64,000 nucleotides of DNA from Morganella psychrotolerans (GTDB lineage Bacteria; Pseudomonadota; Gammaproteobacteria; Enterobacterales; Enterobacteriaceae). Below, piece by piece: positions 1-60,220 of this stretch. The notes under the pieces are model-generated. The model was not told the origin of the DNA and did no database searches. It saw nothing but the letters and a program-made list of their open reading frames with translations. The stretch's first letter is position 1. Each line of letters starts with the position of its first letter. Both the position numbers and the translations under genes were made by a program. The stretch covers positions 1-64,000 of the forward strand of contig NZ_LZEX01000006.1 in NCBI RefSeq assembly GCF_001676055.1. The letters run 5' to 3'.

Positions 1-405
1 CGGTTATGACCGATAAGCCTGCCTGAGTTAATTCCTGAGCGCAGGTCTTTTTCTCGGTCATCACCAGCCCTTTTTTGCGAAAAGCTCCTTCATAGCATGA
101 TTTTCCAGACTAACTTCCGCAAACAACCGCTTAAGCCTGGTATTTTCATCCTCAAGTTCTTTAAGCCTTTTAATATCAGCCGCTTCCATACCGCCATATT
201 TTGATTTCCAGTTATAATATGTGGCGTTACTGATCCCGTTCTGACGGCAAATTTCGTCGACCTTCATACCAGAGTCAGCCAGCTTTAAAATACTGACGAT
301 CTGCGTTTCGGTAAAACGTGCTTTTTTCATTATGACCTCTGCTGTTTTCAGGGCAGAAAATCTAATTATAGTTGTTTCATTTTAGGGGAAGTGGACAGAT
401 CGACA
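1..405 (-). mobile_element. IS3-family insertion sequence, partial (runs off the window start). orfA is at 61-330, the A6G slippery heptamer for -1 frameshifting lies at about 73-79, and the start of orfB is at <1-75. The terminal inverted repeat ends near 405 (TG...)
   Basis: OrfA has the HTH/leucine-zipper architecture typical of IS3/IS407-group OrfA proteins (MKKARFTETQIVSIL...YYNWKSKYGG...ENTRLKRL). An AAAAAAG motif sits at the orfA 3' end. The element interrupts an integrase reading frame. Confidence 0.8.
61..330 (-). CDS. IS3 family transposase OrfA (HTH DNA-binding subunit)
   Basis: The 89-aa ORF has strong similarity by eye to IS3/IS407-group OrfA proteins. Confidence 0.85.
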   Translation of the reverse strand: MKKARFTETQIVSILKLADSGMKVDEICRQNGISNATYYNWKSKYGGMEAADIKRLKELEDENTRLKRLFAEVSLENHAMKELFAKKGW

Positions 406-638
406 CCATTAGCTAACAGCTTACGGGCTTCATCTCGGCGTGCCCGGGCATCTGCCAGCGAGACTTCAGGGTATTTCCCCAGCGCCAGCATCTTCTCTTT
501 GCCGCCGAAGCGATAACGAAGTCGCCAGTATTTAGAACCGTTAGGGTGAACCAGCAATACCATACCGTCACTATCAGTGAGCTTATAGGCTTTTGCTTCC
601 GGCTTAGCCGAACGAACTTTCACATCACTCAGAGCCAT
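406..638 (-). pseudogene. P4-type tyrosine integrase, N-terminal ~78-aa fragment truncated by the IS insertion
   Basis: MALSDVKVRSAKPEAKAYKLTDSDG...YWRLRYRFGGKEKMLALGKYPEVSLADARARRDEARKLLANGVD is the canonical P4-integrase arm-binding N-terminus. The frame reads straight into the IS terminal sequence and stops. Confidence 0.8.
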
Positions 639-805
639 GATGAGTATCCTTTCAAGGGTTCTGTGTGGGTACAAACATTATCGAACCGGGATATACCCGC
701 AGATGTACCCACATCAGTAAGTTGATATAGATTGAATCAGGTTGACTTAGGTTGAGTGAAAAAGCGAGGTAAGCCTTGCAGATACTGGATTTTAGATACA
801 AAAAA

Positions 806-829
806 AGACGTCGATTGACGTCTCTTGAT
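806..829 (-). terminator. relic rho-independent terminator of the ancestral leuX copy (7-bp stem AGACGTC/GACGTCT followed by a T-run on the minus strand)
   Basis: A perfect hairpin plus T6 lies immediately 3' of the displaced tRNA 3'-end fragment. Confidence 0.5.
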
Positions 830-836
830 GTTCTTA

Positions 837-857
837 TGGTGCCGAAGGCCGGACTCG
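837..857 (-). repeat. 21-bp tRNA-Leu 3'-end fragment (CGAGTCCGGCCTTCGGCACCA, including the CCA). This is the distal att direct repeat of the leuX island and the proximal att of the next element.
   Basis: It matches the T-arm/acceptor 3' end of tRNA-Leu(CAA). It shares an 18-bp core (17/18 identical) with the intact tRNA at 12414-12431. Confidence 0.75.
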
Positions 858-1139
858 CAAGTGCTGATATCTAATTGATTTAATAGAATATAACTATAAG
901 TCACGTAAAAACGACCAAGATATTGACCTTTCAGATAAAATATTTATGTATCCCTTTTCTATACAAGATAACTCTACTTTCTCTATGATAACTATCTATC
1001 GACACTACAGTTATTTTTTGTAAAAAGTCTTTAAATTAGTTGTTTATACCAAAATAGGGACCTAATTCATTAGACTACTTACAAAAAAAATCAAGATATA
1101 CTATAATAGTATAAGATTATTATATTAAAGGTAGCTAAT

Positions 1140-2629
1140 ATGAACTGGGAACAATTATTATCACCAAAAAGGTTACGTAATCCAACTACAAGCGCTAAAT
1201 TCGATTTAGATTGCAATAGAAATCAATATGAAAGTGATTTTGGTCGAGTAATCTTTAGTCCTGCATTACGCAGAATGCATGATAAAACACAAGTTTTTCC
1301 ATTAAATACAAATGATAATATTCATACAAGGCTGACTCATTCAATGGAAGTTATGTCTGTTGGATATTCACTAGGAATTGGGATCTGCAATCATGCTGAT
1401 TTCTTAAAAAGAATCAGCTCTCTAAAAGGGTCTTTTAATAAGAATATCTATAGAACCATTCCTGTAATATTAAAAAGCAGCTGTTTATTACACGATATTG
1501 GGAATCCCCCTTTTGGTCACTTTGGCGAAACTATAATACAAAATTACTTTCGAGAACTATTTGAAAAAAATAAAACAATATCTAGCGATATGACTTCGGA
1601 AGAAAGAAATGATTTTATAAATTTTGACGGTAATGCACAAGGCTTCCGAGTCATAACTAAGCTCCAAGCCTTAAATGATTTACATGGACTAAATTTAACC
1701 TCAGCAAGTTTAGCCTCATATTTAAAGTATCCAAATACAAATCCTCCAGATAAAAAAAGAATTGAGACAAAGAAAACAGGTGTTTTTTATTCAGAAAAAA
1801 AATACTTAGAGAAAGTATGTAAGGAATGCGGCCTGATAAATGAAGCAGACTTATTTTTGCGTCATCCATTAAGTTATTTAATGGAAGCAGCCGATTCAAT
1901 TTGCTATTCTGTAATTGATATTGAAGATGCTTTCAAAAAAGGAATAATAACTTTAAATGACATTCTAGAAGAGTTTAATAAAACCAAGTGTAAATTTGAA
2001 AAAGAAAACTTTGATTTATCAAACAACTCATTGGAATTAATAAACGAAGCTATTAACTATATAGATAATACAATTAAAAACACAGATGGTGAAAATAAAA
2101 AAAATTGTTGACATTAGAACTTATTTAATTGCTATTCTAGTTGACGACGCACTCAATAACTTCGCTAATAACTTAGATCAAATCGAAGCTGGTAATTATA
2201 ATAAAGAACTACTTGAGGATGGTAGATTAGCACCCTTAACAAAAGCACTACAAAATATAACTTGCTCTATAATCTTCCCATATAGAGAAATTGTTTCTTT
2301 GGAACTCGCTGGAGATTCTATATTAAAAGGAATATTCAATTATTATATTGGTTTGTTATTTTATGAACCTAAAGGGTTCGAAGAAGAAGATACCGAAATT
2401 GAAAAAATGAAAAGGAAGTATGCAAGCAAGGCCGAATCCATGATATCATCAAGCCTTGTACGTGTTGTAAAAAAAAGAACATGCAGAGGAATATGATTGC
2501 AACGAAAATATTCATATCGTTGAATTATCTACATATTTTAAGATAAAGTTAATTGTAGACTATGTTTCTGGAATGACTGATTTATTTGCAATTAATCATT
2601 ATCAAAAATTAAGTGGGCAGAAAATTTAA
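1140..2629 (+). pseudogene. dGTPase-family HD phosphohydrolase (Dgt-like dNTP triphosphohydrolase), read in three frames. It is interrupted twice, each time by a +1 shift inside an A8 run (~2096-2103 and ~2468-2475).
   Basis: The N-terminal part carries FSPALRRMHDKTQVFPL, HTRLTHSMEV, LLHDIGNPPFGHFGE, FDGNAQGFRV and LMEAADSICYSVIDIEDA, near-identical to E. coli Dgt motifs. The downstream frames continue the Dgt alignment through to YVSGMTDLFAINHYQKL (Dgt C-terminus). GC is about 28%. Confidence 0.8.
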
Positions 2630-2634
2630 ATATC

Positions 2635-3368
2635 ATGAAGAAAAACATTATAAAAGCTCATGAAAATGCATTCCATAAATATTTGGTGGATCGATTCCCT
2701 GACTTCACCAGCGAAATTATTGATGTATTATTAGAGGAAAAAAATGATGTTTTTCTTTTTAGTGGAATCATTAGAGATTACTTTTTACATAGAGATACGA
2801 AACTAGACTTCGATGTAAGAGATCTCGATATTGTAGTGCTTGATATTAACAAGTTCCAAAAAACCATTGGAAATAAAATAGAACATAAAAAAAAATTCAT
2901 TTGGTGGTTTGAAATTATATTTCAATGAAATTACTATCGATGTTTGGCAAACAAACTCAACATGGGGATTGAATCCTATAAAGGCGAATAAAATGGATTC
3001 TAATATAATCAACACTCTACCAGAAACGGTTTTTTTTTAATTGCTCATCTATTTTGTTTGACTTTCAAAATAAAACATTTATAGAGGATAATAATAATTA
3101 CTTCCAGTCTTTCATTGAAAGTAAAATATTAGATATCGTTCTAGAAGAAAACCCACTTCCAGAACTATGTATTTTGAATGCCATTTATTATACAAATACA
3201 TATGACTTAAAAATCAGTAAAAAACTAGCTAATTATGTAATGTCTACATTTTCAAAAATAAATAACGAACGATTTATAAAAGCTCAGCACAATCATTTTA
3301 ATAAAGTTATTTATGAAATAAATCAACTACAGAGAGAAATAGACAAATTGCTTACCAAAATAATTTAA
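2635..3368 (+). pseudogene. small Pol-beta superfamily nucleotidyltransferase of the CCA-adding/poly(A)-polymerase head-domain type, ~245 aa when three frames are joined. The frame shifts by +1 at an A9 run (2887-2895) and at a T9 run (3030-3038).
   Basis: The motif SGIIRDYFL...DFDVRDLDIVVLD resembles the GG.VRD...D.DIVT signature of PcnB/Cca head domains. Its start codon lies 5 nt after the dGTPase stop, so the two genes are probably translationally coupled. The call is tentative. Confidence 0.5.
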
Positions 3369-3523
3369 TTTATTATTAAAAGAACACATTAAACCGTACT
3401 ACATAAAATATATCTATATTTAAACACCGTTCTCATAGCTTTATTGATAGAATAAATAATAACATGTCTTTCACTAAAGTATCATTACAGTAAACCATAT
3501 TGCCTTTACCCCCCATAGCGGCT

Positions 3524-3568
3524 ATTCTAATGTTATCCCCCACAGGGGATATCATTGCAATATCCGCC
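3524..3568 (+). promoter_or_regulatory. two perfect HipB operator palindromes TATCC-N8-GGATA (3524-3541 and 3551-3568) just upstream of hipB
   Basis: They match the E. coli hipBA operator consensus exactly and overlap the predicted promoter. Confidence 0.8.
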
Positions 3569-3581
3569 ATAGGGGATAAAA

Positions 3582-3833
3582 ATGAAAGTCACATCACCGG
3601 CCGCACTGGCTAATGCAGTCAGAGATCAGCGAAAAATCAGTAAGATGAGTCAGACTCAGACTGCTGAGCTGATTGGTATCAAACAGACAACCGTTTCTGA
3701 TTTCGAGAACAAACCGGAATCCACTAAGCTGGAAACGTTGTTCAAAATCCTTGCTGCTCTGGACCTAGAGCTTCATGTTACGAAACGAGGCTCAACTCCG
3801 GATGAGAAAAAAACATGGAATAAGGAGTGGTAA
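3582..3833 (+). CDS. hipB: HipB antitoxin (Xre-family HTH)
   Basis: The 83-aa protein has the conserved ELIGIKQTTVSDFENKPE...LETLFKILAALDLEL stretch seen in E. coli HipB. It overlaps or abuts hipA. Confidence 0.9.
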   Translation: MKVTSPAALANAVRDQRKISKMSQTQTAELIGIKQTTVSDFENKPESTKLETLFKILAALDLELHVTKRGSTPDEKKTWNKEW

Positions 3834-3836
3834 GGG

Positions 3837-5147
3837 ATGAAAACACAGGCACTGACAGTCGCCATGAACGGCGATGTGGTAGGCACACTGTATCGGGATG
3901 GTACGGGTGCTATGTCATTCGAATACACGCCGGAATGGCTGTCTGAGCCCGGTTCCCGAGCTATTTCATTATCATTGCCCCTTCAGCACAACAGAATCAG
4001 GGGTAAGGAAGTATTTAATTTCTTCAGTAACCTGCTGCCGGATTCAGAGGTGATTATTGCCAGGATGCAGGCACGGTTCCATGTTGATACAACTCACCCG
4101 TTTGATCTGCTGGCAAGTGTCGGGCGTGACTGCGTGGGCGCAATTCAGTTGTATCCGTCGGGCAGTGACATTCCGTCTGTCATGGAAACACGGGCTGAGC
4201 CGCTGGATGATCATCAGATTGAAACACTGCTTGATGGCTATCAGACGGCACCTTTAGGGATGGAAGAAGGCGCTGATTTCCGGATTTCTTTAGCCGGAGC
4301 TCAGGAAAAAACAGCACTGCTCTGGTATCAGAACTGCTGGCAGCGACCACAAGGCAGTACACCTACCAGTCATATTTTTAAGCTCCCGATTGGGCGGATA
4401 GAACAGAATAATATCGACCTGCGGGAAAGCTGCGAAAATGAATGGCTGTGTTTGCGTATAGCCAAAGCATTTGGATTCCCGGCGGCTGATGCTGAATTAG
4501 CCGTATTTGGTCAGAAAAAGGTACTGATCGTCAGGCGCTTTGATCGGAAGTGGTCAGAGAATGGCTGGCTGATGCGGTTGCCTCAAGAGGATTTTTGCCA
4601 GGCTCTGGGAGTATCTCCGGCACTGAAATATGAGTCACATGGCGGTCCGGGAATAGCGGATGCAATGAATCTGTTGTTGGGCTCCCGCCTTGCCACACAA
4701 GACCGTGAATTATTTTTTAAATCACAGATTCTGTTCTGGATGCTGGCTGCAATTGATGGTCACGGGAAGAATTTCAGCCTGTTTATCGAGCCCGAAACAT
4801 CGTTCCGGATGACACCGCTTTATGATGTGATGTCTGCATTTCCTATTTTTGGCAGCAGGAGTATTCCGCTTAAAAAAGCCAAAATGGCAATGGCGTTATA
4901 CGGGAAAAATAAGCAGTATAATTTTGCGATGATACAGCCCCGGCATTTTATCAGTACCGCCGCACAAGTCGGATTTCCTCAGGATATTGCCCGTAAACTT
5001 ATGCTGGAAATGGCCTCTTACACAGGCACGGTGATCTCCACTGTAGCCACAGAGTTACCGGCTGATTTTCCGCAACACATCAGTGGCGCCATTTTCAAAG
5101 GGTTATCCGGGCAGGCTGCTAAAATCGTTAAATGGGTGCAAAATTAA
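3837..5147 (+). CDS. hipA: HipA serine/threonine-protein kinase toxin
   Basis: The 436-aa protein aligns along its full length with E. coli HipA (FNFFSNLLPDS, GAQEKTALL, RLPQEDFCQA, KYESHGGPGIA, DGHGKNFSLF). Confidence 0.95.
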   Translation: MKTQALTVAMNGDVVGTLYRDGTGAMSFEYTPEWLSEPGSRAISLSLPLQHNRIRGKEVFNFFSNLLPDSEVIIARMQARFHVDTTHPFDLLASVGRDCVGAIQLYPSGSDIPSVMETRAEPLDDHQIETLLDGYQTAPLGMEEGADFRISLAGAQEKTALLWYQNCWQRPQGSTPTSHIFKLPIGRIEQNNIDLRESCENEWLCLRIAKAFGFPAADAELAVFGQKKVLIVRRFDRKWSENGWLMRLPQEDFCQALGVSPALKYESHGGPGIADAMNLLLGSRLATQDRELFFKSQILFWMLAAIDGHGKNFSLFIEPETSFRMTPLYDVMSAFPIFGSRSIPLKKAKMAMALYGKNKQYNFAMIQPRHFISTAAQVGFPQDIARKLMLEMASYTGTVISTVATELPADFPQHISGAIFKGLSGQAAKIVKWVQN

Positions 5148-5254
5148 TCTCGGAGGGTATTGAAATGGGCTACATCGATGAAACGAATATAATTGATTGG
5201 GATAAGACCACCATTATTCAGAAACATTTCGTATATTTCTGAGGAGAAATAGCC

Positions 5255-5656
5255 ATGGTTAAAATAGCCCCTATCAAATTACTCCTTTCGTCTGCATTTT
5301 TATTTCTTTTGGCGGGCTATGGGATATATGTTTCAATAACTCATTATCTGGACTATTTTTTGATGAAGGATAAAATCGAATTTTCATTCTTAACCGGCCT
5401 GTTTGGTTTTGGTTCTCCCCTGATTATCTACTTTGTATATTTTGGATTTATTTTATCACGCGATATAAAACCAACAAAAAGAACAGTAAGCACTGCAAAA
5501 TATCTGGCAGGAATAGCAATATTCGGCATGATTTTTAGTTTGTTTTTTTTAGCCTACGTCAACGTTAACCTGACATCAAAAGGTTATCTGACTTGTGACA
5601 AAAAATCCATATTCGCTCCTAATAAATATGTCCTATCAAAAAATATGTGTAAATAA
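5255..5656 (+). CDS. hypothetical small membrane protein (3-4 predicted TM helices), low-GC island cargo
   Basis: The 133-aa ORF has hydrophobic segments and an RBS (GAGGAGAAATAGCC ATG). There is no recognisable family. Confidence 0.4.
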   Translation: MVKIAPIKLLLSSAFLFLLAGYGIYVSITHYLDYFLMKDKIEFSFLTGLFGFGSPLIIYFVYFGFILSRDIKPTKRTVSTAKYLAGIAIFGMIFSLFFLAYVNVNLTSKGYLTCDKKSIFAPNKYVLSKNMCK

Positions 5657-6146
5657 AGAGTACATGGTTTAATTATTAACCACTTGGCAGTAAAGCAATA
5701 TCACCTCCGGATAGTCCGGCTATTATATCCACTATGAATATAGTGCATAAAATATACTGATGAAGAATGAATATAATGAAAACAGGCAGATTGTTCATAT
5801 CGTTATTGATGCTATATCCGAAGATACTACCCTTTAAATAATTTCTCGGTATAGATACAGATTCCATCTGAATACGCTAATTCTGAATTCTTAATACAAA
5901 TCCCCATCCCAAAAAACTCAATCACCCGATCTACTCCGGAAACCTTCAAAACCCCAAATACAGTTGCTGATACAAATCATTAGCCACCTAATTCCGGGTA
6001 TTTCCTGGCTTTGCGGCAACGTTGCCTTTTTTAGCCATTTTCATGAAACGTAAACCCGCTTGAACCCGTCATCCGTTACCCCTACGTTTATACGCGTAAA
6101 ACCTGCTGTCAGTGACAGCCGCCAATGTTTCAATATCAATAAGATA

Positions 6147-6270
6147 TATACCCAACGTCATTCAAGTTGCAGGCAGGCGGCAAGCTCCGACCGCCGGGGA
6201 GCATACTGGTATGTGACCCGGCGGGTATCGTTCCGCCAACGAACCTGCTGTTTGAATGAATAAGGGTATA
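6147..6270. repeat. MITE-like repeat, copy 1 (~124 bp). It has imperfect terminal inverted repeats TATACCCAACGTCATTCAAG...CTGNTGTTTGAATGAATAAGGGTATA.
   Basis: It is about 85% identical to the copy at 47650-47775. A partial 5' end is also present at 41382-41408. Confidence 0.6.
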
Positions 6271-6772
6271 AGTGACCTGCAAGAAACGCCTTCGGGTGGC
6301 CGCAATACTCTTCCGTAATCCGGAAGAAACACCGTTAAAACCGAATCTCAGTGTCTGATATGTGCAGTTGACTGCGCTTTGCTATGCCTCAAGGGCATCT
6401 GCAAGCGCCTGTCCTGCTGCGCAGTGTTTAAGGCGTCACTTTTACGCCGCCGCACAGACTACTCTCAGCCCCTGAGATACACCGCTTACACAATCCGTCA
6501 TGCCTCTGACACCACAGTCAGCGTCTGATAAATCACCGGAAAGGAGACCACAACCACACTGAACCGATACCGGGAACGGGCTGCTCAGCCCGTGGGGATA
6601 TCCGCTCACGGACAGCCAAAGGCGAAAGCTGCACCCGTGCGGTACTGCGTGACGATATGAAAGCAATGGGATTTGATGTCTCCAAAAAGTTTTCCCGCTG
6701 GCTGGATAAGCTGGAAAAAGACAATCTGATCACATTGCGTGGCGAGGAAATTATCCCGCTGCCGTATCAGAC

Positions 6773-6990
6773 CAAAGTGGGGGACTAAACGGGGGAATGG
6801 TGGGGGAAGCCATCCGGAGCACCATAAAAACCGGTGTTTTCCCCACTTCGCAGTTATATATAGAACCTAAGTGGGGGCGATGCTGTAATTTCATAATAAA
6901 CATGCAGTTACGTTAAATTCCAAAAATGAGGTGGGGGAAGAAGTGGCACCCAGCTATGTGGGGGGCGAAGTGGGGGACGTTCTCACGTTT
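6773..6990. repeat. iteron-like array. It has at least 7 copies of RRGTGGGGG(A/C), one of them inverted, within ~220 bp, followed by an AT-rich tract (7080-7400).
   Basis: Copies are AAGTGGGGGA (6774), GGTGGGGGAAG (6799), inverted CCCCACTTCG (6843), AAGTGGGGGCG (6871), GGTGGGGGAAGAAGTGG (6929) and TGTGGGGGGCGAAGTGGGGGAC (6957-6978). The spacing and the neighbouring AT-rich DNA resemble a replication origin. Confidence 0.55.
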
Positions 6991-7558
6991 TTTCCCTGGC
7001 AGGCGCAGTTAAAACCTCGCTGATTTACAGACAACGCGTCAGTGCCGGTCATCTCAAATTTATAGTTGAGCCAGATATTTTTGATTGAAATTTTTCAGTG
7101 CCTGGGTATTTTATATTAGATTCGTAACGTAGCCGTACTAATCACCATGGATGAGATAATATTGATCGATACCATTTTTTTTTATTTATAAGCGCATTGA
7201 TTTTCTGGCAATTATTGTTTTTTCTCTGCTTGCACTTTGGCTTTCATCCATTTCATCAGGACGAATTTTAAGGCTTGCATTATTTTTGTTAGCGATACTA
7301 ATTATTACCCCTTATATTTTTGCCGCTGCTTATGTATTACTTATAATGTCCGTAAGCCTGATGTTTGCATATAACTAAAAATATACACACATCAATATTG
7401 CGCTTCTGATAGTTTATCTGCCGCTCTACCGCATCCCGTAACCACATAGCTACTTAGTCGTGCTGTATCCAATCTATCTACCCACACTAACAAATTTGCG
7501 CTCAGTCAGGTACCTGACAAAAACGATCACATCCGAAGGTTGTTTTTTATGCATGCAT

Positions 7559-7599
7559 TTGACGATTTATAAATCATGATTTACTATAAACGTAAATCA
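7559..7599 (+). promoter_or_regulatory. sigma70-like promoter (TTGACG-17-TACTAT) overlapped by a perfect 8-bp inverted repeat TGATTTAC-N7-GTAAATCA. This is a probable autoregulatory operator of the Xre-type antitoxin gene.
   Basis: Sequence inspection; it sits about 40 bp upstream of the ATG at 7637. Confidence 0.45.
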
Positions 7600-7636
7600 C
7601 CCCGCTTTGTCACATGCGGAAAAATGGGAGGATCGT

Positions 7637-8278
7637 ATGCATACGCACAGTGCTGAAAGAGAAAGAAAAAAACCGGCTGTTTCATTTCATGCAAATGAGG
7701 TGCTGGCAAGCCGCGTCAGTCATCTTGTTTCATCCCTTTTTGCTGATTTTGACGATAAATCTCTGGTATCTGAAATCATGGTACTGGAAGACCTTGAGTT
7801 GCTGGTTTACGTTGTAAATGCTTATCTGCAAAAGAAAACGCGGATGAATGATCGCGAAATGGAGATGTTCAAAGCCAGAATTCAGGCTACAGTCAGATTT
7901 TATCAGAAGCTGGATAAGCTGGGCGGTACTGTAAAAGCGAAAGAGGTCAGTGAGTTGCTGGGAGTGACACGGCAAACCGTTAATAATCATGTTAACAAAG
8001 GCAAGCTGATTGCAGTACGTCGTGGCGGTGATTATCTGTTCCCTGTCTTTCAGTTTAAGGGGTCAGAAATGCTCCCTCATCTGGACGATATTCTGCTGTG
8101 TCTGCCGCCGGAAACGGATGCAACGGCACGGGTTTCATTCCTGACCAACCCGGTTCGAGTTGATAATAAAAATCCTGTAAAAACACCGCTTGAGATCCTC
8201 AGTGACAATCCTTCCGATGAAAAAATAGCACTGTTACGCCGCGAGGCTACACTTTTCGCCAATCAGATGGCATCATAA
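7637..8278 (+). CDS. Xre/MbcA/ParS-like antitoxin with an HTH plus a C-terminal DUF2384 toxin-binding domain, and an unusually long N-terminal region
   Basis: The HTH is VSELLGVTRQTVNNHVNKGKLIAVRRGGDYLFP. The C-terminal FLTNPVRVDNKNPVKTPLEILSDNPSDEKIALLRREATLFA matches the DUF2384 consensus. The ORF-track start at 7607 uses TTG; the ATG at 7637 has a GGGAGGA RBS. Confidence 0.7.
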   Translation: MHTHSAERERKKPAVSFHANEVLASRVSHLVSSLFADFDDKSLVSEIMVLEDLELLVYVVNAYLQKKTRMNDREMEMFKARIQATVRFYQKLDKLGGTVKAKEVSELLGVTRQTVNNHVNKGKLIAVRRGGDYLFPVFQFKGSEMLPHLDDILLCLPPETDATARVSFLTNPVRVDNKNPVKTPLEILSDNPSDEKIALLRREATLFANQMAS

Positions 8279-8320
8279 AAGGGTTCACCGGCCCAGACAG
8301 ACCGGTGAACCATAACAGCA

Positions 8321-8968
8321 TTAAAGCGTCACATCGAAGTGCAGTATTTTCACCAGCATCTCCTCTGCCGTGATGTCCTTATAAGGCCAGCCGACAGGCA
8401 GAAACTGATGCTCTGTATACTTACTGAGTGATTCACACGCCAGGGTTTTAAACAACTTTCCCTCTTCCGGTTCAAACACTGCGAGGCACATCCCCGCAAG
8501 ATAGTGGCGGCTTGCATAACGGATACCATGGAAATCCCGCTCCGGATCATTTGCCAGACAACCCGTGATAGCCTGCGTCAGTGTGTAGTCAACACCGGTC
8601 AGTTGATCCGCTGTCAAATGCAACATAGACGCAAGAGTCGCCATATCAACCAATCGCAGCGGGAATACCGGATGCAACGTGTACATCTGAGCAATCTCCA
8701 GACTGCTGCCGGATATCGCAAAATGCCCGCGACCATGGTGATACATCCTGCCATAACTTTCTGCCAGTGCTGTCAGGCTGTTCTCTGCGAAATAGCATAC
8801 CCCGGTATTACCGGACAGATCGTTATAGCGCCCCATATCATCCGGTTTTGTTGGTTTCCCGTAATGTTCCGCTGACGGATAGTGTTTTCCCTGAAAGCGC
8901 TTCACATCCAGATCAAAACCTAAAACAGGTAATTTCCCATTATGGCAAAGCTGGGTCAGTTGTTCCAA
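8321..8968 (-). CDS. RES-domain toxin (NAD+-targeting Res/MbcT/ParT family)
   Basis: The protein carries GRYNDLSGNTGVCYFAENSLTALAE and FHGIRYASRH motifs with the conserved R, E and S positions. It is convergent with the DUF2384 gene, 42 bp apart. Confidence 0.75.
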   Translation of the reverse strand: MEQLTQLCHNGKLPVLGFDLDVKRFQGKHYPSAEHYGKPTKPDDMGRYNDLSGNTGVCYFAENSLTALAESYGRMYHHGRGHFAISGSSLEIAQMYTLHPVFPLRLVDMATLASMLHLTADQLTGVDYTLTQAITGCLANDPERDFHGIRYASRHYLAGMCLAVFEPEEGKLFKTLACESLSKYTEHQFLPVGWPYKDITAEEMLVKILHFDVTL

Positions 8969-9209
8969 AACGACGAGATATCTTCCATCACAAATAATTC
9001 CTATATATTTAATATCCTTACTAAATAACGAATGATAGCGATATGCTTCACCCTTCCTGAAAGTTCAGTTCATATTTCTGTATGTGAACTGCCGATCCTG
9101 CCCATAAGCAGGAGCGGCAATCGTTGCACATTTGTTAAATCAGGTTAAGGTTTTTATTGTTATTCTTTGAATTGGATATGAAAAATAGTCTGAACAGAGT
9201 CAAAACTAA

Positions 9210-9243
9210 AAGATGATATACAGTACCGGCCATCTAAAAACAG
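9210..9243 (-). terminator. hairpin with a perfect 11-bp stem (ACAGTACCGGC...GCCGGTACTGT) immediately 3' of the integrase
   Basis: Stem-loop followed by a T-rich tract on the minus strand. Confidence 0.45.
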
Positions 9244-9261
9244 CCGGTACTGTGTTAAATA

Positions 9262-10521
9262 TTATCCGATCTCAAACTCATACGGCACCACAAACTCCCG
9301 GCTGACTGCATCCAGGTAATCACCCCACCATTGCATTATCAGTTTTCGTTCCACAATGTGTTCGGCTTTGTGAATATAGGCGGCGCGGACGGCATTGCGC
9401 TCCTGGTGGCTCATCTGCCGCTCTATCGCATCCCGTGACCATTTTCCTGATTCAATCAGTGCGCTGCACGCCATGGTGCGAAAACCATGACCGCACAGCT
9501 CCTTAGCAGTGTCGTATCCCATCGTCCGCAGGGCATTGTTCACCGTGTTCTCACTCATCGGTTTTATCAGGCTATGGTCGCCCGGGAAGAGCAGCTCGCC
9601 CTCTCCGCTTATTGTCCTGATTTCTGCCAGAACGGCCAGTGTCTGGCGCGACAGCGGCACAATATGCTCTGACTGCATTTTTGCACCACGATAGGAGAAT
9701 TTCACACCGGGAATCGGCGTACGCTCTGCCGGAATTATCCAGATGGCGCGTTCTGTGTCGAATTCAGACCAGCGGGCAAGACGGATTTCACTGGAGCGCG
9801 AAAACGTCAGCAGCGTAAACTGTATCGCCAGTTTGGTTAACCGGCGGCCGTTGTAATAATCCAGCTTTGTCAGCAGCTCCGGCAGCCGTTCCAGCCGCAG
9901 CGCCGGGCGGTGGGTCACACGCGGCGGCATCAGTGCTCCGGCCATGTCCTTCGCAGGATTGCGATCAATCACGCCGCACTGAACCGCATATCCCATGATA
10001 TCCGTGATCCGCTGCTTCAGCCGCGAGGCCAGCTCCAGACGATCATTCGCCTCTACAATCCGCAGCGGTACCAGTAAATCTTTGGTTTTCAGTTCCGCAA
10101 CATGCCGCTGACCTATCGCCGGGAGAATATGCTTTTCCATATCGCGCCAGATACGGTTAGCGTGCGTCTCTGACCAGCGCCGCCGTCTGAGCATCTGCTG
10201 CGACCATTCTCGCGCCATTTTCTCAAAGGTATTCAGCGCATCCTCTTCGGCTTCCTTCTCCGCGATACGCTTCTGCTTCGGGTGAATACCATCCAGTATC
10301 ATCAGACGGGCTTCATCGCGTTTATCACGGGCGCGTGACAGTGAAACCAGCGGATATGCGCCGAATGCTATCCGGCTCTCTTTGCCGTTGTATGCAAACT
10401 TAAAATACCAGCGCTTTGTACCAACCGGATTTACCTGAAGATAAAGGCCGTACTCGTCGGCCAGTTTGTACATCTTTTTACCAGGTTTTGCGTTCCTTGC
10501 TGCCATGTCACTTAATGCCAT
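9262..10521 (-). CDS. int: P4-type tyrosine integrase/recombinase, full length
   Basis: The 419-aa protein has a DUF4102 arm-binding N-terminus (MALSDMAARNAKPGKKMYKLAD...) and a catalytic C-terminal domain. It lies 1.9 kb from tRNA-Leu on the same strand. Confidence 0.95.
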   Translation of the reverse strand: MALSDMAARNAKPGKKMYKLADEYGLYLQVNPVGTKRWYFKFAYNGKESRIAFGAYPLVSLSRARDKRDEARLMILDGIHPKQKRIAEKEAEEDALNTFEKMAREWSQQMLRRRRWSETHANRIWRDMEKHILPAIGQRHVAELKTKDLLVPLRIVEANDRLELASRLKQRITDIMGYAVQCGVIDRNPAKDMAGALMPPRVTHRPALRLERLPELLTKLDYYNGRRLTKLAIQFTLLTFSRSSEIRLARWSEFDTERAIWIIPAERTPIPGVKFSYRGAKMQSEHIVPLSRQTLAVLAEIRTISGEGELLFPGDHSLIKPMSENTVNNALRTMGYDTAKELCGHGFRTMACSALIESGKWSRDAIERQMSHQERNAVRAAYIHKAEHIVERKLIMQWWGDYLDAVSREFVVPYEFEIG

Positions 10522-10971
10522 AAGTCCGGGTCACTCCTTTGTCGAATTGGTTTATCGCATCGTGACTTTTACGTACTCCGGGAACAACAAAGAAATATAT
10601 TCACAAAGTTGAACATTTTAATAAGCAGGTGACATAGGGGTTCATCACTGTGTGGACAACCAAAAACAGTGCAGAATAACGAAACAGGCTGAATTGCCGG
10701 TTGGTATAATTTGAGGGGAAAATTTAATTCGTTGTTTTTATTTGAAAAGATAAATAGTGATATTTTTTATCGGGGTATACAGGTGGCGGTATATATCTAG
10801 GTGAGATATACATGTGATTTATTGGTACTGACTTACCCCTCACTGCATTACTCTGCCATGAGGGTATAACGAGTGAACTACGATAAGAGTAATGAAAATA
10901 TGAAGTTTATTTAAAATATTTCTTTTATGAACATCACCGGAACCACCTGATACACAGGTGGCCAGCTAATA

Positions 10972-11707
10972 TTACCAATTTATATTAAAGATGTATCCTT
11001 CCAGCACAAGGGTAATAATTACAATAAATAATACAACCATTCCGCCAACTCCGAATGTCTTAAATCTACATTTCTGCCCACACTTAAATATAAAAAAGAA
11101 GAAACCAGTTTGGTTTTTATTCGCTAATGCATAGGCTAACTCAATAAAAGAAGATATGTGTATTAAAATAATGGAAATACTTATCAATATTGCAGATGAT
11201 ATTATAGAAAGAGAAAGATTCTTCCCATGTCCATTTAATTTCGCCCAGAATTTACTGGCAGAATCAACCTCCCTGGCAACATTAAGAATATCCTGAGGAA
11301 TTAGCCCATTGACTTTTCCATTTAATGAAAAAATTATCACTGCCAATACACCCATTAATAACCATCTTATAACATCAACACGTTCGGCTTCCTTGTTAGT
11401 AAATAAAATTAATAATCCAATAAATGCTAATACGGGTGACGTTACAGCTCCCCATGTTAATACAGAATATACTTGTTCATAATAACTAAAAAAAAAGCCA
11501 TGCTAAGAGACTGACTATGAATATTACTGCAACGGCACTGCCTACAACGATAGGATTGCCATCACTATCTGTTGATTTTTTGTGATTATTATTGATGGTT
11601 TTGTTAATTACTTGGGTGTTTTGAATATTGTAGCCACCACTGTTACTCTGAACAACGTTAATATTATCTGTGTTATTCTTGATGTTTATATCTGCAAATC
11701 TTCCCAT
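10972..11707 (-). pseudogene. Asn-rich membrane protein of unknown function, given as two ORFs of 73 and 127 aa. The frames fuse into ~245 aa if the A9 run at 11488-11496 were A8.
   Basis: Manual translation shows an open frame linking the two ORFs across the homopolymer. It has an Asn-rich N-terminus and at least 4 hydrophobic helices. Confidence 0.4.
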
Positions 11708-12373
11708 ATTTTTCTATTCCATCTAAGTGGATGACAATAATGAAATACATTTATGCCGTACTAATTATACGAAACACATACCTGTGATGTTACCTTCGAT
11801 ATTAAATAAACACAAAGCATGCCTATTTTTACAAAACAATCAATGAGTTAAAAATAATAAAATGATTAGAACACTAAAAAATCACTCATTAACTACCTTT
11901 ATTAGTAGTCAATCTGGTAACTCATTTTTAGTGAATATAATCTATTAAGGATATCGGAACAATAAATTAAAAGCTCATCAGAGCTAATAATCTAGCTGTA
12001 TATCTTTATGCATCCATGTAACCTGTTTTCTACTCTGAGTTCAATGTCACCAACGCTTCATGCCACTGGTTCCGGATGTTACTTGGCTAGCATGACTATA
12101 TATCCCCAAAGTTTTTAATCCGTATGGACGAAAATATCTAAAAGTAGATGGTTCTTTTTACCTGAATATTTATAACACCAACACCGGGTCAAAAAACCGC
12201 GTCGCAAAGTTGACCCCGTCAAAACCGTTTTTTTGCCCGGATGACGCCCGGACAGCAACAGACCTACCGAAGCGCGTTACACGAACCGGTAATTGGAAAT
12301 TAAAATGTTATTTTACATAAACTTACAAACAAGAAAGGCGGCTAAAAACAGCCGGATAGCGAATTTCAGGCAC

Positions 12374-12396
12374 AAAAAAAGCCACCTCGCGGTAGC
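12374..12396 (-). terminator. rho-independent terminator downstream of tRNA-Leu (stem GCTACC-GCGA-GGTGGC plus T7), supplied by the island
   Basis: Hairpin plus U-run 18 nt past the tRNA 3' end. Confidence 0.45.
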
Positions 12397-12413
12397 TTGA
12401 TTTCACTTAAGAA

Positions 12414-12495
12414 TGCCGAAGGCCGGAATCGAACCGGCACGCCCTAAAGCGGTTGATTTTGAATCAACTGCGTCTACCAATTCCGCCACTCCGGC
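12414..12495 (-). tRNA. leuX: tRNA-Leu (anticodon CAA), the leuX homologue. Its 3' end is reconstituted from island sequence and no CCA is encoded (the 3' trailer is TTC).
   Basis: It is 82 nt and matches E. coli leuX (GCCGGAGTGGCGGAATTGGTAGACGCAGTTGATTCAAAATCAACC...GTGCCGGTTCGATTCCGGCCTTCGGCA). The anticodon loop is TTCAAAA. Confidence 0.9.
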
Positions 12496-12523
12496 ACTGA
12501 AGTGTGTTCTCGATAACGGCGTT

Positions 12524-12553
12524 ATTATACGTGTGGTGCCGGGAGGTGCAAGA
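12524..12553 (-). promoter_or_regulatory. leuX promoter: -35 TTGCAC, 16-nt spacer, -10 TATAAT, and a GC-rich discriminator
   Basis: Near-consensus sigma70 elements 25-60 nt upstream of the tRNA 5' end. Confidence 0.5.
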
Positions 12554-12904: not shown

Positions 12905-14128
12905 ATGAGTAAATTACACCGTCATATTGTGCGTCTGCTGCCTTTTTCATTACTGGCCATTGCGCTCTCCGCCTGTTCCTCACAGCCTGCGAAGCAAGCC
13001 GTTTCGCCCGCAGAACGCCCGCCTCTGGACTGGTCCATTATTGATAACAGTACAACACCCCTGAAGCTGGCACCGCAACTTGTAGATGAAGCCGGAGAGA
13101 AAATTTTCTCAGAAACAGATGCCCGCGGTATGTTTATGGTGGTGATTGATAACAACGAAATTTTTCACCGCAGCTATGGTGAGACCCGTCCGGGAAATGG
13201 TGTCAAACCACGGACAGATTCGCTGATCCGTATTGCATCCGTCAGTAAACTGATGACCAGCGAAGTGCTGGTAAAAATGGCGGATGACGGGCTGGTGAAT
13301 CTGAACGATCCGCTGCAAAAATACACTTACGGGCAGACAAAAGTGCCGGCTTATAACGGCAAGCCAATCCGCCTGTTTCATCTGGCGAGTCACACCAGTA
13401 TTCTGCCGCGCGAGCAGCCCGGCGGGAAATGGGGACGTCCGGTGTTTACCTGGCCAAGCCGCGATCAGCGCTGGACATGGCTGAAAACAACAAAACTGAC
13501 TGCCCAGCCGGGAACAGAAGCTGCTTATTCCAATATTGCGTATGACTTACTGGCAGATGCACTCGAAAAAGCCGGAAAACGCCCTTATCCTGAGCTGTTC
13601 AGACAATATGTGACACAGCCTGCGGGTATGAAAGATACGACTTACAATCCGTCTTCCGCTCAGTGTAAGCGCCTGATGGTCGGTTTCAAACCAAGTGATT
13701 GTTACAGCACACTGGCAGCAGTCGGCAGTGGCGGGGTTTACTCTACACCGGCTGATATGCAGAAATGGATGCAGGGATTTCTCTCATCCGGACGTTCAGC
13801 ACGCAAAGCAACGGCTTCCAAAGAACAGACTATCTATTTCAAACGCGGCCATCTTAATGAAATAAAAGGGATGGATGTTGCAGGTAGTGCAGATGGTCTG
13901 GGGCTTGGTTGGGTGTATCTGGCACCTGTCGGGGATATCCCGGCTATTTACCAGAAAACCGGTGGCGGTGGTGGCTTTAATACCTATATGGCTATGATCC
14001 CGGAGAAAAATGTCGGTATCTTTGTGGTAATGACCCGTAAAGACGGCAGTAAATTCAGCCCGTTACCGAATGGTGTCAATGATTTGGTACGCTCTCTGGC
14101 GGATTTACATACCCGTGATTTTCTGTAA
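12905..14128 (+). CDS. ampH: AmpH-like penicillin-binding protein / class C beta-lactamase-fold serine hydrolase lipoprotein
   Basis: The 407-aa protein has a lipobox (LSAC), the SVSKLMTSE (SxxK) motif, and full-length similarity to E. coli AmpH. Confidence 0.85.
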   Translation: MSKLHRHIVRLLPFSLLAIALSACSSQPAKQAVSPAERPPLDWSIIDNSTTPLKLAPQLVDEAGEKIFSETDARGMFMVVIDNNEIFHRSYGETRPGNGVKPRTDSLIRIASVSKLMTSEVLVKMADDGLVNLNDPLQKYTYGQTKVPAYNGKPIRLFHLASHTSILPREQPGGKWGRPVFTWPSRDQRWTWLKTTKLTAQPGTEAAYSNIAYDLLADALEKAGKRPYPELFRQYVTQPAGMKDTTYNPSSAQCKRLMVGFKPSDCYSTLAAVGSGGVYSTPADMQKWMQGFLSSGRSARKATASKEQTIYFKRGHLNEIKGMDVAGSADGLGLGWVYLAPVGDIPAIYQKTGGGGGFNTYMAMIPEKNVGIFVVMTRKDGSKFSPLPNGVNDLVRSLADLHTRDFL

Positions 14129-14150
14129 TACCTGAGTAAAAATGCCCGCT

Positions 14151-14954
14151 TCAGCAGCGGGCATGTTCCAGTACCGTTTTCATTAAAAAAGCATCAAGCG
14201 GCACGCTGTCACGATGCGATGATTTACCCGGAGAGTGTTCCGCGGTTTCTGCCAGCACATCCTGTATCAGTTTATCGATAGCCGGACGCCGTGCACCATA
14301 CAAACTTTCACCGGCTGATTTCTTCAGAGTCACAAGCGCGTTAATTTCATCACGGACTGTATCGTCAGTTACTGTGCCATCCACCAGCGTTTCAAATGCC
14401 ATCGGCGGCAGCCCTTTGCCGGCGGCTATCCAGCGTAGTGCCATTACCGGTCGCAATACATAAAAATACTTTTTCAGCCGGACCTGCTCTGCCAGTAAAT
14501 GCTCTTGCGTGTTGCGTTTTGCCATCGAAAGATAGTGCCAGCGCGCTTTATGTGAGGAATAAAACTGTGCTGCCAGCTCCGTTATTTCCCTGGTGAATGT
14601 TTCATCCTGATAATATATTACCGGAGAGCTGAGCCACTCAATCAGTGCGGGGTTAGAGTTTCTCAGCAGTTTCAGTGCTTTGGATAACTCCCAGCCCGCC
14701 ACATCCAGTTCATCATCTATCGGTTTTTCTATGACATCCCGCTTGCGATCAAGTGCGAGATACCAATCCGGCTGATGCACATAGATAAAACGCACATCAT
14801 AATCACTGTCCGGTGAGGCAAATCCCCATCCGCGACTACCTGATTCACAGGCGTACAACACTTTCACATGATGTGTTTTCTCTATCTCTGCCAATGTTTT
14901 TTTTATCCGCTCCCGCATTACGGCGCAAACGGCTTCATCATCTTTATCCGTCAT
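14151..14954 (-). CDS. Pol-beta superfamily nucleotidyltransferase (GS-X9-DxD motif ESGSRGWGFASPDSDYDVRF), last gene of the rtcB operon
   Basis: The 267-aa protein has a 4-nt gap to rtcB. This NTase family is often encoded next to RNA-repair genes. Confidence 0.75.
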   Translation of the reverse strand: MTDKDDEAVCAVMRERIKKTLAEIEKTHHVKVLYACESGSRGWGFASPDSDYDVRFIYVHQPDWYLALDRKRDVIEKPIDDELDVAGWELSKALKLLRNSNPALIEWLSSPVIYYQDETFTREITELAAQFYSSHKARWHYLSMAKRNTQEHLLAEQVRLKKYFYVLRPVMALRWIAAGKGLPPMAFETLVDGTVTDDTVRDEINALVTLKKSAGESLYGARRPAIDKLIQDVLAETAEHSPGKSSHRDSVPLDAFLMKTVLEHARC

Positions 14955-14958
14955 TTTT

Positions 14959-17312: not shown

Positions 17313-17490
17313 TATTTTTCCTTTTCATTTTATGAGCCACGACCGGACACAAATACAGTATCGCGGGGGAAACCACAGAGGACCGGAGGCTGTCTGTCGT
17401 TCTGCCCGCCACCCGGTATGACAGCCGGGCCGTGGTGTGCGGCTCTGCGTTCAGCCGCGTGAAAACTGCTTTATGTTTACTGCATAAGGA

Positions 17491-17528
17491 GGTGATTCAG
17501 GATTCGAACCTGATAAAGCCATATCACC
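17491..17528 (-). ncRNA. tRNA-like minihelix in the rtc operon leader: GGTGAT-ATGGCTTTA-[TCAGG TTCGAAT CCTGA]-ATCACC (acceptor-like stem plus a perfect T-arm). Possible Y-RNA-like or tRNA-like element.
   Basis: A GGTTCGAATCC T-loop consensus flanked by 5-bp and 6-bp stems, inside a 330-nt untranslated leader between the sigma54 promoter and the first ORF. Confidence 0.3.
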
Positions 17529-17639
17529 GGGAACTGCGCGGACAAAACGGAATACAGATAATGAAACGGCATTGCCGCCACCTCTGCACCGGTCGGGCGT
17601 AAAGCCCAGACAATTTCTGTCAGTGCGGTACAGGTAATA

Positions 17640-17657
17640 TTGCGATAAGCGTGCCAG
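17640..17657 (-). promoter_or_regulatory. sigma54 (-24/-12) promoter TGGCACG-CTTA-TCGCA, driving the SPFH-rtcB-NTase operon
   Basis: One mismatch to TGGCACG-N4-TTGCW. It is divergent from the rtcR start about 170 bp away. Confidence 0.6.
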
Positions 17658-17824
17658 TTTTATAAATTTCAAAAATATTTTTATAACATATTGATATTTA
17701 ACATATATTTATTTTTGTGATTTTATCCGTGCCATTGGGATATAAAATGACTTATGCTTATTACTATCCTGTAATATCGTGTTTTATCCTGAAAAATAAA
17801 TTCCGGTGATTGTGAAAATCAATA

Positions 17825-60143: not shown

Positions 60144-60220
<77 letters not shown>

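What the first reader, a model, noticed from the sequence alone, without database searches (positions are those of the whole stretch)
1..12553. Composite leuX island: two P4-type integrases in tandem, the outer one cut by an IS3 element, and the ancestral tRNA 3' end plus its terminator displaced 11.6 kb
The intact tRNA-Leu(CAA) at 12414-12495 has an island-derived 3' end. A 21-bp copy of the canonical tRNA 3' end, including the CCA, sits at 837-857. It is still followed by a perfect terminator hairpin plus T-run (806-829), which is the fossil of the pre-integration leuX. About 200 bp further lies a second P4-type integrase (406-638) that has been truncated by an IS3-family element. Its N-terminus is only ~45% identical to the int at 9262-10521. 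This is the signature of serial accretion of two different integrative elements at one tRNA. The outer element is immobilised by the IS and by loss of its distal att.
Basis: seen in the sequence. Interest (0 to 1): 0.6.

Follow-up and report, generated by a model that had tools for sequence, protein, structure and literature searches.

The report
Tandem P4-type islands at Morganella leuX
Two mobile islands sit one after the other in the leucine tRNA gene leuX of a Morganella chromosome, an ordinary and well-known arrangement; the "fossil" tRNA end and terminator belong to the outer island rather than to the ancestral chromosome.

Summary
These are an intact tRNA-Leu(CAA), a 21-bp tRNA 3' end copy 11.6 kb away, a hairpin terminator beside it, a P4-type integrase stub cut by an IS3 element, and a full integrase further in.

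The host is Morganella psychrotolerans or a close relative. Serial accretion at leuX is supported. The "ancestral 3' end plus terminator" reading is not. Window 398-857 is one contiguous block holding the integrase start, about 200 bp of arm with the hairpin, and the 21-bp core. It is 91-95% identical to the tRNA-proximal junction of leuX islands in E. coli, M. morganii, Xenorhabdus and Photorhabdus, whereas the neighbouring core gene ampH matches E. coli at only about 64%. Its first 20 bp are identical to the phage P4 attP core. The hairpin is therefore the outer island's own arm.

The inner island is a decayed relative of a satellite-like element family. It has lost the primase, Ash and AlpA genes, and its integrase-side arm is split by a 1.4-kb insert. 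It gives leuX a 3' end with no encoded CCA. The order of the two integrations cannot be resolved, and the outer island's far end lies outside the window. This is a new member of a known kind and of low interest.

The parts
1..397 (-). Left end of an IS3-family insertion sequence. The terminal repeat ends at 397 and OrfA is at 61-330. The rest runs off the window.
   Evidence: HTH_Tnp_1 E 4e-24. transpos_IS3. 80-83% identical to IS3 copies in Proteus, Moellerella and Providencia. Similarity to intact integrases stops at 397/398.
398..638 (-). 5' stub (codons 1-80) of the outer P4-type integrase (int2).
   Evidence: Arm-DNA-bind_3 domain. 93-97% aa identity to the integrase N-termini of L008, L051, L056, L058 and L060. 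The full-length E. coli A41 homologue is 59% identical to P4 Int.
639..836 (-). P' arm of the outer element. It includes the hairpin terminator (stem 826->803, T-run 806-800) that served leuX before the inner element arrived.
   Evidence: Terminator scan. The arm is contiguous with int2 and 91-95% identical to E. coli, M. morganii, Xenorhabdus and Photorhabdus junctions.
837..857 (-). Displaced leuX 3' fragment. It is attR of the inner island and also the core of the outer island's attL.
   Evidence: 17/18 match to the resident tRNA, none expected by chance. 837-856 is identical to the P4 attP core.
858..960 (-). P arm of the inner element.
   Evidence: The core-proximal ~25 nt (AATCAATTAGATAyCArCAC..GCGAG), which are the best-conserved stretch, recur next to a displaced leuX fragment in an independent contig (L074), followed there by a different downstream arm. 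GC drops to 24-30% from 858 onward.
1140..2496 (+). Cargo: a dGTPase of the anti-phage type. It reads as two ORFs (1140-2111 and 2086-2496) because of an A-run length at about 2090-2097.
   Evidence: PADLOC dGTPase E 3e-56. NCBIfam dGTP triphosphohydrolase hits on both halves. L073 has A7 instead of A8 at that run, which restores the frame there.
3582..5147 (+). Cargo: HipB (3582-3833) and HipA (3837-5147) toxin-antitoxin pair.
   Evidence: HTH_3, Couple_hipA and HipA_C domains. The pair is shared with L005 and L074 at 89-97%.
5255..5656 (+). Cargo: DUF1240 membrane protein.
   Evidence: Pfam E 3e-21.
5910..7360 (.). ORF-poor backbone DNA of the inner element family. It contains a sub-threshold STAXI-like RNA motif (6104-6329, plus strand). 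It also contains the junction (6596-6603) where the primase-helicase, Ash, AlpA and Integrase_1-like module of intact relatives has been deleted.
   Evidence: Rfam STAXI 33.9 bits against a gathering score of 40.5. The two sides of the junction lie about 4.1 kb apart in L005. The module is present in L005, L075 and L077.
7361..7521 (-). Decayed C-terminal vestige of a third P4-type integrase.
   Evidence: tblastn to int1 residues 318-388, E 6e-5. 48 nt are 85% identical to int1. The frame contains stop codons. The same vestige lies in the homologous block of L001, L003 and L077.
7607..8968 (.). HTH/excisionase-domain protein (7607-8278, plus strand) and RES-domain protein (8321-8968, minus strand). 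This is the cargo slot behind int1.
   Evidence: HTH_17, TIGR01764 excise domain (below cutoff) and RES domain. Relatives carry Hcp plus DUF4225, or DUF4268, in this slot.
9262..10521 (-). Full-length inner P4-type integrase (int1).
   Evidence: Arm-DNA-bind_3, Phage_int_M and Phage_integrase domains. 53% identical to P4 Int over residues 1-411. 90-98% identical to Morganella homologues.
10522..10798 (-). Integrase-proximal part of the inner P' arm.
   Evidence: Conserved with L001, L003, L005 and L074.
10799..12174 (-). Strain-specific AT-rich insert that splits the inner P' arm. It has small ORFs at 10972-11355 and 11486-11707 with no family match.
   Evidence: Only about 126 bp lie here in L005. 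Different 1.9-2.0 kb inserts lie here in L001 and L003. No Pfam or PADLOC hits.
12175..12413 (-). tRNA-proximal part of the inner P' arm. It supplies the terminator now used by leuX (stem 12398->12379) and TTC in place of CCA.
   Evidence: Terminator scan. 98.7% identical in L001 and 92% in L074, where it follows a displaced fragment rather than the tRNA.
12414..12495 (-). Intact tRNA-Leu(CAA), leuX. Its last ~14-18 nt are island-derived and there is no encoded CCA.
   Evidence: ARAGORN and Rfam. Sequence GGCA|TTC. The two other tRNAs in the window encode CCA.

Best explanation
The left 12.5 kb of the window is a tandem array of two P4-type integrative islands in leuX of a Morganella psychrotolerans-like chromosome.

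How these elements integrate: each carries an attP made of a copy of the tRNA 3' end, followed by its own terminator hairpin, about 200 bp of arm, and then its integrase gene. Integration crosses over inside the shared 14-nt stretch TCCGGCCTTCGGCA. The tRNA is rebuilt with the element's 3' end and terminator, and the previous 3' end is pushed to the far side of the element.

Outer element: it belongs to a widely travelled E. coli/Morganellaceae leuX island family. Its core is identical to P4's, with CCA and a GACGTC hairpin. An IS3 insertion at codon 80 of its integrase has inactivated it.

Inner element (858-12413): it belongs to a Morganella family that, when intact, carries integrase, primase-helicase, Ash and AlpA. 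Here it has lost that module, retains an old integrase vestige, and has a 1.4-kb insert inside its P' arm. It is probably poorly mobile or immobile.

Shown: the junction sequences, their homologies, the domain content and the deletions. Inferred: the recombination events themselves, their order (outer first is the simpler reading) and the loss of mobility.
For: - Core repeat: 17/18 match, none expected by chance.
- Independent assembly: L073 reproduces the junction.
- Mobile block: 398-857 is 91-95% identical to the leuX-to-integrase junction in E. coli A41, M. morganii CYJ1 and MMsCG, X. vietnamensis and P. viridis. ampH is about 64% to E. coli, and AmpH protein is 57-62% to Xenorhabdus and Photorhabdus.
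- P4 link: 837-856 equals the P4 attP core. Both integrase types are 53-59% identical to P4 Int over the full length.
- Arms travel with integrases: arm identity tracks integrase type, Spearman 0.76, partial 0.72 given host, against 0.22 for host given integrase.
- Site occupancy: 48 of the 60 junction sets with a tRNA-Leu(CAA) (59 fetched Morganellaceae loci plus the window itself) have a P4-type integrase or remnant next to leuX.
- Second example of the junction: the inner P arm recurs beside a displaced fragment with a different downstream arm in L074.
- Decay of the inner island: relatives L005, L075 and L077 show the intact gene order. The window has a deletion junction at 6596-6603.
- Own terminators: each arm has one.
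Against: - The distal end of the outer island and the first chromosomal gene beyond it are outside the window. The outer element therefore has no demonstrated second att site.
- No empty leuX site was found in any Morganellaceae species representative, so the true ancestral 3' end and terminator remain unknown.
- No shared arm-type repeats were found between the inner P and P' arms.
- Excision was not tested.
- The order of integration is not determined by the local sequence.
Confidence: 0.8

Rival explanations
1. One reading: the 21-bp CCA end and the hairpin at 806-829 are the ancestral chromosomal end and terminator of Morganella leuX, displaced by the inner island. The second integrase merely lies beyond them.
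For: The fragment carries CCA and a clean terminator, as a native tRNA end would. The resident tRNA end lacks CCA.
Against: - The hairpin is embedded in a block (398-857) that continues without a break into the integrase. That block is 91-95% identical across genera whose core genes are 57-64% identical.
- In five other genomes the same block lies between an intact leuX and its integrase, that is, inside the island.
- Arm type follows integrase type and not host.
Confidence: 0.04
2. Same two elements, opposite order. The inner island integrated first. The outer island later used the core copy at the inner island's attR as its attB.
For: - The final sequence would be identical to what is seen, because attR keeps the full 21-bp core.
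- int1-type islands are widespread in M. psychrotolerans and M. morganii, which hints at long residence.
Against: - The complete tRNA is the canonical target.
- The int2-type block sits directly on the intact tRNA in M. morganii and the other genera.
- The outer element looks more decayed at its integrase, which is cut by an IS.

None of this is decisive.
Confidence: 0.13
3. There is no separate outer island here. The block 398-857 was carried in as the tail of a composite element, for example a tandem pair excised together from an earlier host, whose real far end lies further left.
For: - The block is more similar to E. coli copies (92-95%) than to M. morganii copies (91%).
- The inner P-side base G in CGAG is the E. 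coli/Providencia type and not the Morganella type.
Against: - An independent tandem array (L074) has the same inner P arm joined to a different downstream arm. The junction is therefore a recombination site and not a fixed part of one element.
- No other genome was found with this exact pairing apart from the near-identical L073.
Confidence: 0.03

Closest known systems
Satellite phage P4 integration at E. coli leuX
   Same: - The 20-bp attP core of P4 is identical to window 837-856.
- Both integrases are 53-59% identical to P4 Int over the full length, with the same three-domain layout.
- The integrase gene lies next to the core on the tRNA-proximal side.

Sources.
   Different: - No P4 morphogenesis-control genes (sid, delta, psu) were seen in the window or in relatives.
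- The arms differ from P4's annotated 12-bp arm repeats.
- The inner element's core copy lacks CCA.
leuX pathogenicity/genomic islands with P4-like integrases, such as PAI II536 of E. coli 536
   Same: - A P4-like integrase, flanking direct repeats and site-specific insertion that restores leuX. PMC3202238 describes excision, transfer and reintegration at leuX.
- The outer block is found at this position in thousands of E. coli genomes.
   Different: - The host is Morganella.
- The visible cargo is small defence and toxin-antitoxin genes, not virulence operons.
- The outer integrase is destroyed by an IS.
Tandem arrays of tDNA islands as defined by Islander
   Same: Islander defines an array as one where each member has its own integrase and its own tDNA fragment. 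It reports 125 such arrays among 3919 islands (PMC4383910). The inner island meets the definition fully.
   Different: The outer member's own tDNA fragment is not visible in the window and its integrase is truncated.
Satellite-like islands of Gram-negative bacteria carrying integrase, AlpA and primase (from my own knowledge: P4-like and PICI-like elements)
   Same: Intact relatives of the inner island (L005, L075, L077) carry integrase, a primase-helicase (Zn_Ribbon_Prim, Toprim_3, AAA_25), Ash and AlpA in one block.
   Different: The window copy has lost exactly that block, so it works at most as a passive integrated island. Capsid-redirecting or packaging genes were not looked for in relatives.

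Membership tests
P4-family tyrosine integrase | Arm-binding N-terminal domain, central domain and catalytic tyrosine-recombinase domain. | tested here: met
   int1 has all three Pfam domains. int2 keeps only the arm-binding domain (codons 1-80), so it is a fragment of such a gene.
P4-family tyrosine integrase | Full-length sequence similarity to P4 Int. | tested here: met
   int1 is 53% identical over residues 1-411. The intact E. coli homologue of int2 is 59% identical over residues 1-409.
P4-family tyrosine integrase | Recombination activity at the leuX core. | not testable with these tools
   Only junction sequences are available. No excision or integration assay was possible.
tRNA-integrated genomic island | An intact tRNA at one end, a displaced 3' tDNA fragment in the same orientation at the other, and an integrase inside. 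| tested here: met
   Inner island: tRNA at 12414-12495, fragment at 837-857, int1 at 9262-10521, all on the minus strand.
Tandem island array (Islander definition) | Every member has its own integrase and its own tDNA fragment. | tested here: inconclusive
   The inner member meets it. The outer member has an integrase stub, but its distal fragment would lie left of the window.
P4-like / PICI-like phage satellite | Replication module (primase-helicase) and AlpA-type regulator next to the integrase. | tested here: not met
   Absent from the window. Present in relatives L005, L075 and L077. A deletion junction lies at 6596-6603. The window copy is a decayed derivative and not a functional member.
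P4-like / PICI-like phage satellite | Helper-exploitation genes (capsid size control, packaging). | not tested
   Not searched for in relatives. None appears among the window ORFs that were scanned.
IS3-family insertion sequence | OrfA with HTH_Tnp_1, followed by a frameshifted OrfB DDE transposase, terminal inverted repeats and a short target duplication. | tested here: inconclusive
   OrfA and one terminus are present. OrfB, the other end and the target duplication are outside the window.

The most novel reading that the evidence does not exclude
The Morganella int1-type element family rebuilds leuX with a 3' end that has lost its encoded CCA (GGCA followed by TTC or ATC). This is seen in nine independent assemblies besides the window (L001, L002, L004, L005, L007, L075 and L078 on the resident tRNA, L003 with a 1-nt gap in the T-stem, and L074 on a displaced fragment). 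Every other leuX junction examined encodes CCA, as do the two other tRNAs in the window. If this matters, tRNA-Leu(CAA) maturation would depend on 3' trimming and on the CCA-adding enzyme. The element could thereby tune or hold hostage UUG decoding. The same family also uses the interior of its own P' arm as a slot for strain-specific AT-rich cargo.
Probability: 0.15. Interest if true: 0.45.

Novelty: new member of a known kind. Interest (0 to 1): 0.2.

Why it matters
The main value is as a worked example and a caution. A displaced tRNA end with a tidy terminator next to an island is not necessarily ancestral. In tandem arrays it is the previous element's own arm, and leuX-targeting P4-type islands each bring a terminator with them.

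The analysis also shows that leuX is almost never empty in Morganellaceae. It defines an int1-type element family in Morganella, with an intact form and several decayed forms. It flags a CCA-less leuX that could be checked by tRNA sequencing. None of this changes current understanding of island biology.

Tried and rejected
- Empty leuX site for comparison: 68 loci around AmpH homologues were fetched from one genome per species. Almost all Morganellaceae have an integrase or remnant at leuX, and no conserved far-flank gene appears within 10 kb. The ancestral end could not be read directly.
- Second core copy in relatives: none within 10 kb of leuX in L001-L060.
- Arm-type repeats shared by the inner P and P' arms: only one AT-rich 10-11-mer was found, which is not convincing.
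- Exact-protein look-ups: the dGTPase, HipA and int1 of the window are not on record.
- Metagenome scan for the inner attR junction and viral-contig scan for int1: nothing.
- Morganella chromosomes in the plasmid collection, to walk beyond 10 kb: none.
- Chance or artefact explanation for the repeat: rejected.
- The T-loop G/T difference as a marker of foreign origin for the displaced fragment: rejected as uninformative. That base lies on the P side of the crossover and is also G in L074.


Full report
**1. What is in the sequence**

ARAGORN and Rfam find one tRNA-Leu(CAA) on the minus strand at 12414-12495. Its 3' part reads ...GGTTCGATTCCGGCCTTCGGCA and is followed by TTC, not CCA.

A second copy of the 3' end lies at 837-857. 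On the tRNA strand it reads CGAGTCCGGCCTTCGGCACCA. Over 840-857 it matches the resident tRNA at 17 of 18 positions. It is the only other match in 64 kb, and none occurred in 100 shuffles.

Directly downstream of it on the minus strand is a hairpin with a T-run (stem 826->803). A further 198 bp on, at 638, an ORF starts that has a P4-type arm-binding domain. This ORF is 46.7% identical to the first 90 residues of the full integrase at 9262-10521.

Alignment with intact relatives shows that the stub ends at 398. There the terminus of an IS3-family element begins, with OrfA at 61-330. A Logan contig from another sequencing run (L073) matches window 368-2744 with no mismatches and four homopolymer-length differences.

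**2. Host and setting**

The flanking gene at 12905-14128 is ampH. Its product is 97-98% identical to Morganella psychrotolerans, 88-90% to M. morganii and 57-62% to Providencia, Xenorhabdus and Photorhabdus.

I examined 60 leuX junctions: 59 fetched Morganellaceae loci with a tRNA-Leu(CAA), plus the window itself. Of these, 48 have a P4-type integrase or a remnant, most of them within about 200-600 bp downstream of leuX. No other gene is conserved across genera in the 10 kb downstream. leuX is thus a permanently occupied hot spot in this family. No empty site was available for comparison.

**3. The "fossil" end belongs to the outer element**

Window 398-857 runs without a break from the integrase start through about 200 bp of non-coding arm and the hairpin to the 21-bp core.
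- It matches 4682 of 5426 E. coli genomes, the best at 92-95% identity. The match always lies under the annotations "integrase | tRNA-Leu".
- In E. coli A41 the block sits between an intact leuX and a 420-aa integrase that is followed by a type I restriction system.
- The same block is 91% identical in M. morganii CYJ1 and MMsCG. The integrase start (93-97% aa) and the first 120 nt of the arm (89-91%) are as close in X. vietnamensis and P. viridis. In each case it abuts the intact tRNA.
- Core DNA is much more diverged. ampH is about 64% identical to E. coli, and megablast finds nothing but the tRNA in the 4 kb flank.
- Positions 837-856 are identical to the annotated 20-bp attP core of phage P4.

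As a general test, I compared 43 leuX junctions pairwise. Identity of the first 120 nt after the discriminator base correlates with identity of the integrase N-terminus (Spearman 0.76; partial 0.72 controlling for AmpH identity). It correlates only weakly with host relatedness (partial 0.22).

The arm, hairpin included, therefore travels with the integrase. It is the outer element's P' arm. It was the working end of leuX only in the interval before the inner element arrived.

**4. The inner island**

From 858 the GC content falls to 24-30%. In tRNA orientation the inner island reads as follows:
- **tRNA-proximal P' arm** (12413-12175). It has its own terminator, stem 12398->12379.
- **AT-rich insert** of 1.4 kb (12174-10799). 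It is strain-specific. L005 has about 126 bp here, and L001 and L003 have different inserts of about 2 kb.
- **Integrase-proximal arm** (10798-10522).
- **int1.** It is full length, has three domains and is 53% identical to P4 Int.
- **RES-domain gene and an HTH/excisionase-domain gene**.
- **Decayed vestige of a third integrase** at 7361-7521.
- **ORF-poor backbone** with a sub-threshold STAXI-like motif.
- **Cargo:** DUF1240, HipBA, two small AT-rich ORFs and an anti-phage-type dGTPase.
- **P arm and core.**

Intact relatives in M. morganii and M. psychrotolerans (L005, L075, L077) place a primase-helicase, Ash, AlpA and an Integrase_1-like gene between the integrase region and the STAXI-like backbone. 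In the window the two sides of that module are fused at 6596-6603. The replication and excision-control genes have therefore been deleted.

The integrase vestige is also present in L001, L003 and L077. It is an old feature of the M. psychrotolerans branch of the family and not a recent event in this strain.

**5. 857/858 is a recombination junction**

An ENA metagenome contig (L074) encodes an integrase 96% identical to int1. It holds a displaced leuX fragment preceded by a sequence homologous to the window's inner P arm (AATCAATTAGATAyCArCAC..GCGAG). That fragment is followed not by the CCA-hairpin arm but by the CCA-less int1-type arm and its integrase.

The same P arm joined through the same core to a different downstream arm is what site-specific integration into differently pre-occupied leuX genes predicts. 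It also shows that tandem arrays are recurrent at this site.

**6. Mechanism and order**

Established knowledge of P4 and of leuX islands such as PAI II536 (PMC3202238) is that the integrase recombines attP with the 3' end of leuX, which regenerates the gene. Here the only stretch identical in both copies is TCCGGCCTTCGGCA, so the crossover lies within it.

The G of CGAG at the displaced copy belongs to the inner element's P side. The CCA and the hairpin belong to whatever was downstream of leuX before. The TTC and the second hairpin belong to the inner element's P' side.

The simplest history is outer element first, then inner element into the tRNA. An outer element integrating into the inner island's attR would give the same sequence and cannot be excluded.

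The outer element is dead as an autonomous unit because its integrase is cut at codon 80. The inner one has an intact integrase and near-perfect repeats. It lacks AlpA, and its arm is split by 1.4 kb, so I infer low or no excision. This was not tested.

**7. CCA-less leuX**

Every int1-type arm seen lacks CCA after the discriminator and has TTC or ATC instead. On the resident tRNA these are the window, L001, L002, L004, L005, L007, L075 and L078. L003 reads the same but has a 1-nt gap in the T-stem, and in L074 the arm follows a displaced fragment. All other leuX junctions encode CCA, as do the tRNA-Met and tRNA-Leu(GAG) genes in the window.

The closest related arms, in Providencia, read CCA-CTTAAGTGAAAA against TT-CTTAAGTGAAAT here. 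The tRNA still scores as intact. Presumably it is matured by 3' trimming and the CCA-adding enzyme; this rests on general knowledge and was not tested.

**8. Comparison and novelty**

This is a textbook tDNA tandem array. Islander defines such arrays and counts 125 among 3919 islands (PMC4383910). The integrases are close kin of P4 Int, and the site is P4's own target.

What is new is only the particular host and element family, the correction of the "ancestral terminator" reading, and the CCA-less detail. Interest is low.

**9. Limits**

- The far end of the outer island, the rest of the IS, and the ancestral chromosome beyond them lie outside the window.
- No unoccupied Morganella leuX was found.
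- No arm-type repeats could be defined for the inner element.
- Scans of metagenome and viral collections found nothing.

Noticed in passing
window 2090-2097 (also 800-806, 1076-1083, 1787-1794): The dGTPase reads as two ORFs because of an A8 run. The near-identical contig L073 has A7 there, which restores that frame, but A9 at 1787-1794, which breaks it elsewhere. All four differences between the two assemblies are A-run lengths. They are likely homopolymer sequencing errors, and the gene is probably intact at about 459 aa.
   Followed up: yes
window 12411-12413: leuX has TTC where CCA is expected. The same holds in every Morganella assembly with the int1-type arm. The other two tRNA genes in the window (60144-60220 and 60279-60368) encode CCA.
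   Followed up: partly
window 6104-6329 (+): Sub-threshold match to the STAXI RNA motif (33.9 bits, gathering score 40.5, E 4e-5). The conserved stems are intact but one loop is enlarged. It lies in about 1.7 kb of ORF-poor, 51% GC backbone that is conserved in related islands just downstream of their Integrase_1-like gene.
   Followed up: partly
window 7361-7521 (-): Decayed C-terminal vestige of a third P4-type integrase. It is shared with L001, L003 and L077, which suggests an older replacement of the integrase-proximal module in this element family.
   Followed up: yes
window 10799-12174: The interior of the inner element's P' arm, between the tRNA-proximal ~240 bp and the integrase-proximal ~275 bp, holds different AT-rich inserts of 0.1-2 kb in different strains. 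In the window it holds two small membrane-like ORFs with no family match. In L074 it holds an amidase gene and a 40-bp IS3 end.
   Followed up: partly
window 2635-3368: Two short AT-rich ORFs (97 and 104 aa) next to the dGTPase. One has a weak DUF5644 hit and the other has none. They could be one broken gene or a partner of the dGTPase.
   Followed up: no
window 8321-8968 (-) and 7607-8278 (+): A RES-domain toxin-like gene with no antitoxin ORF upstream. The neighbouring HTH/excisionase-domain gene is convergent with it and not co-oriented.
   Followed up: partly
window 14126-19403: The rlaP-rtcB-band7-rtcR block next to ampH is absent from M. psychrotolerans DSM 17886 and MIP2488 (L003, L004). 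It is present in L001 and L002, and partly in M. morganii. It is a presence/absence polymorphism of the RNA-repair locus.
   Followed up: no
L074 (ENA ERZ24828769 contig k141_153604) 7606-11260 and 13945-14396: An independent tandem array of two int1-family elements. The distal one carries a HipA fragment fused to an HTH gene fragment, followed by a Fec-like iron ABC transporter.
   Followed up: partly
L014 and L058 (record titles): A contig labelled Phytomonospora sp. (an actinomycete) carries a Providencia-like ampH locus, which is likely contamination. A 774-kb M. morganii scaffold labelled 'plasmid' carries the chromosomal leuX-ampH region.
   Followed up: no
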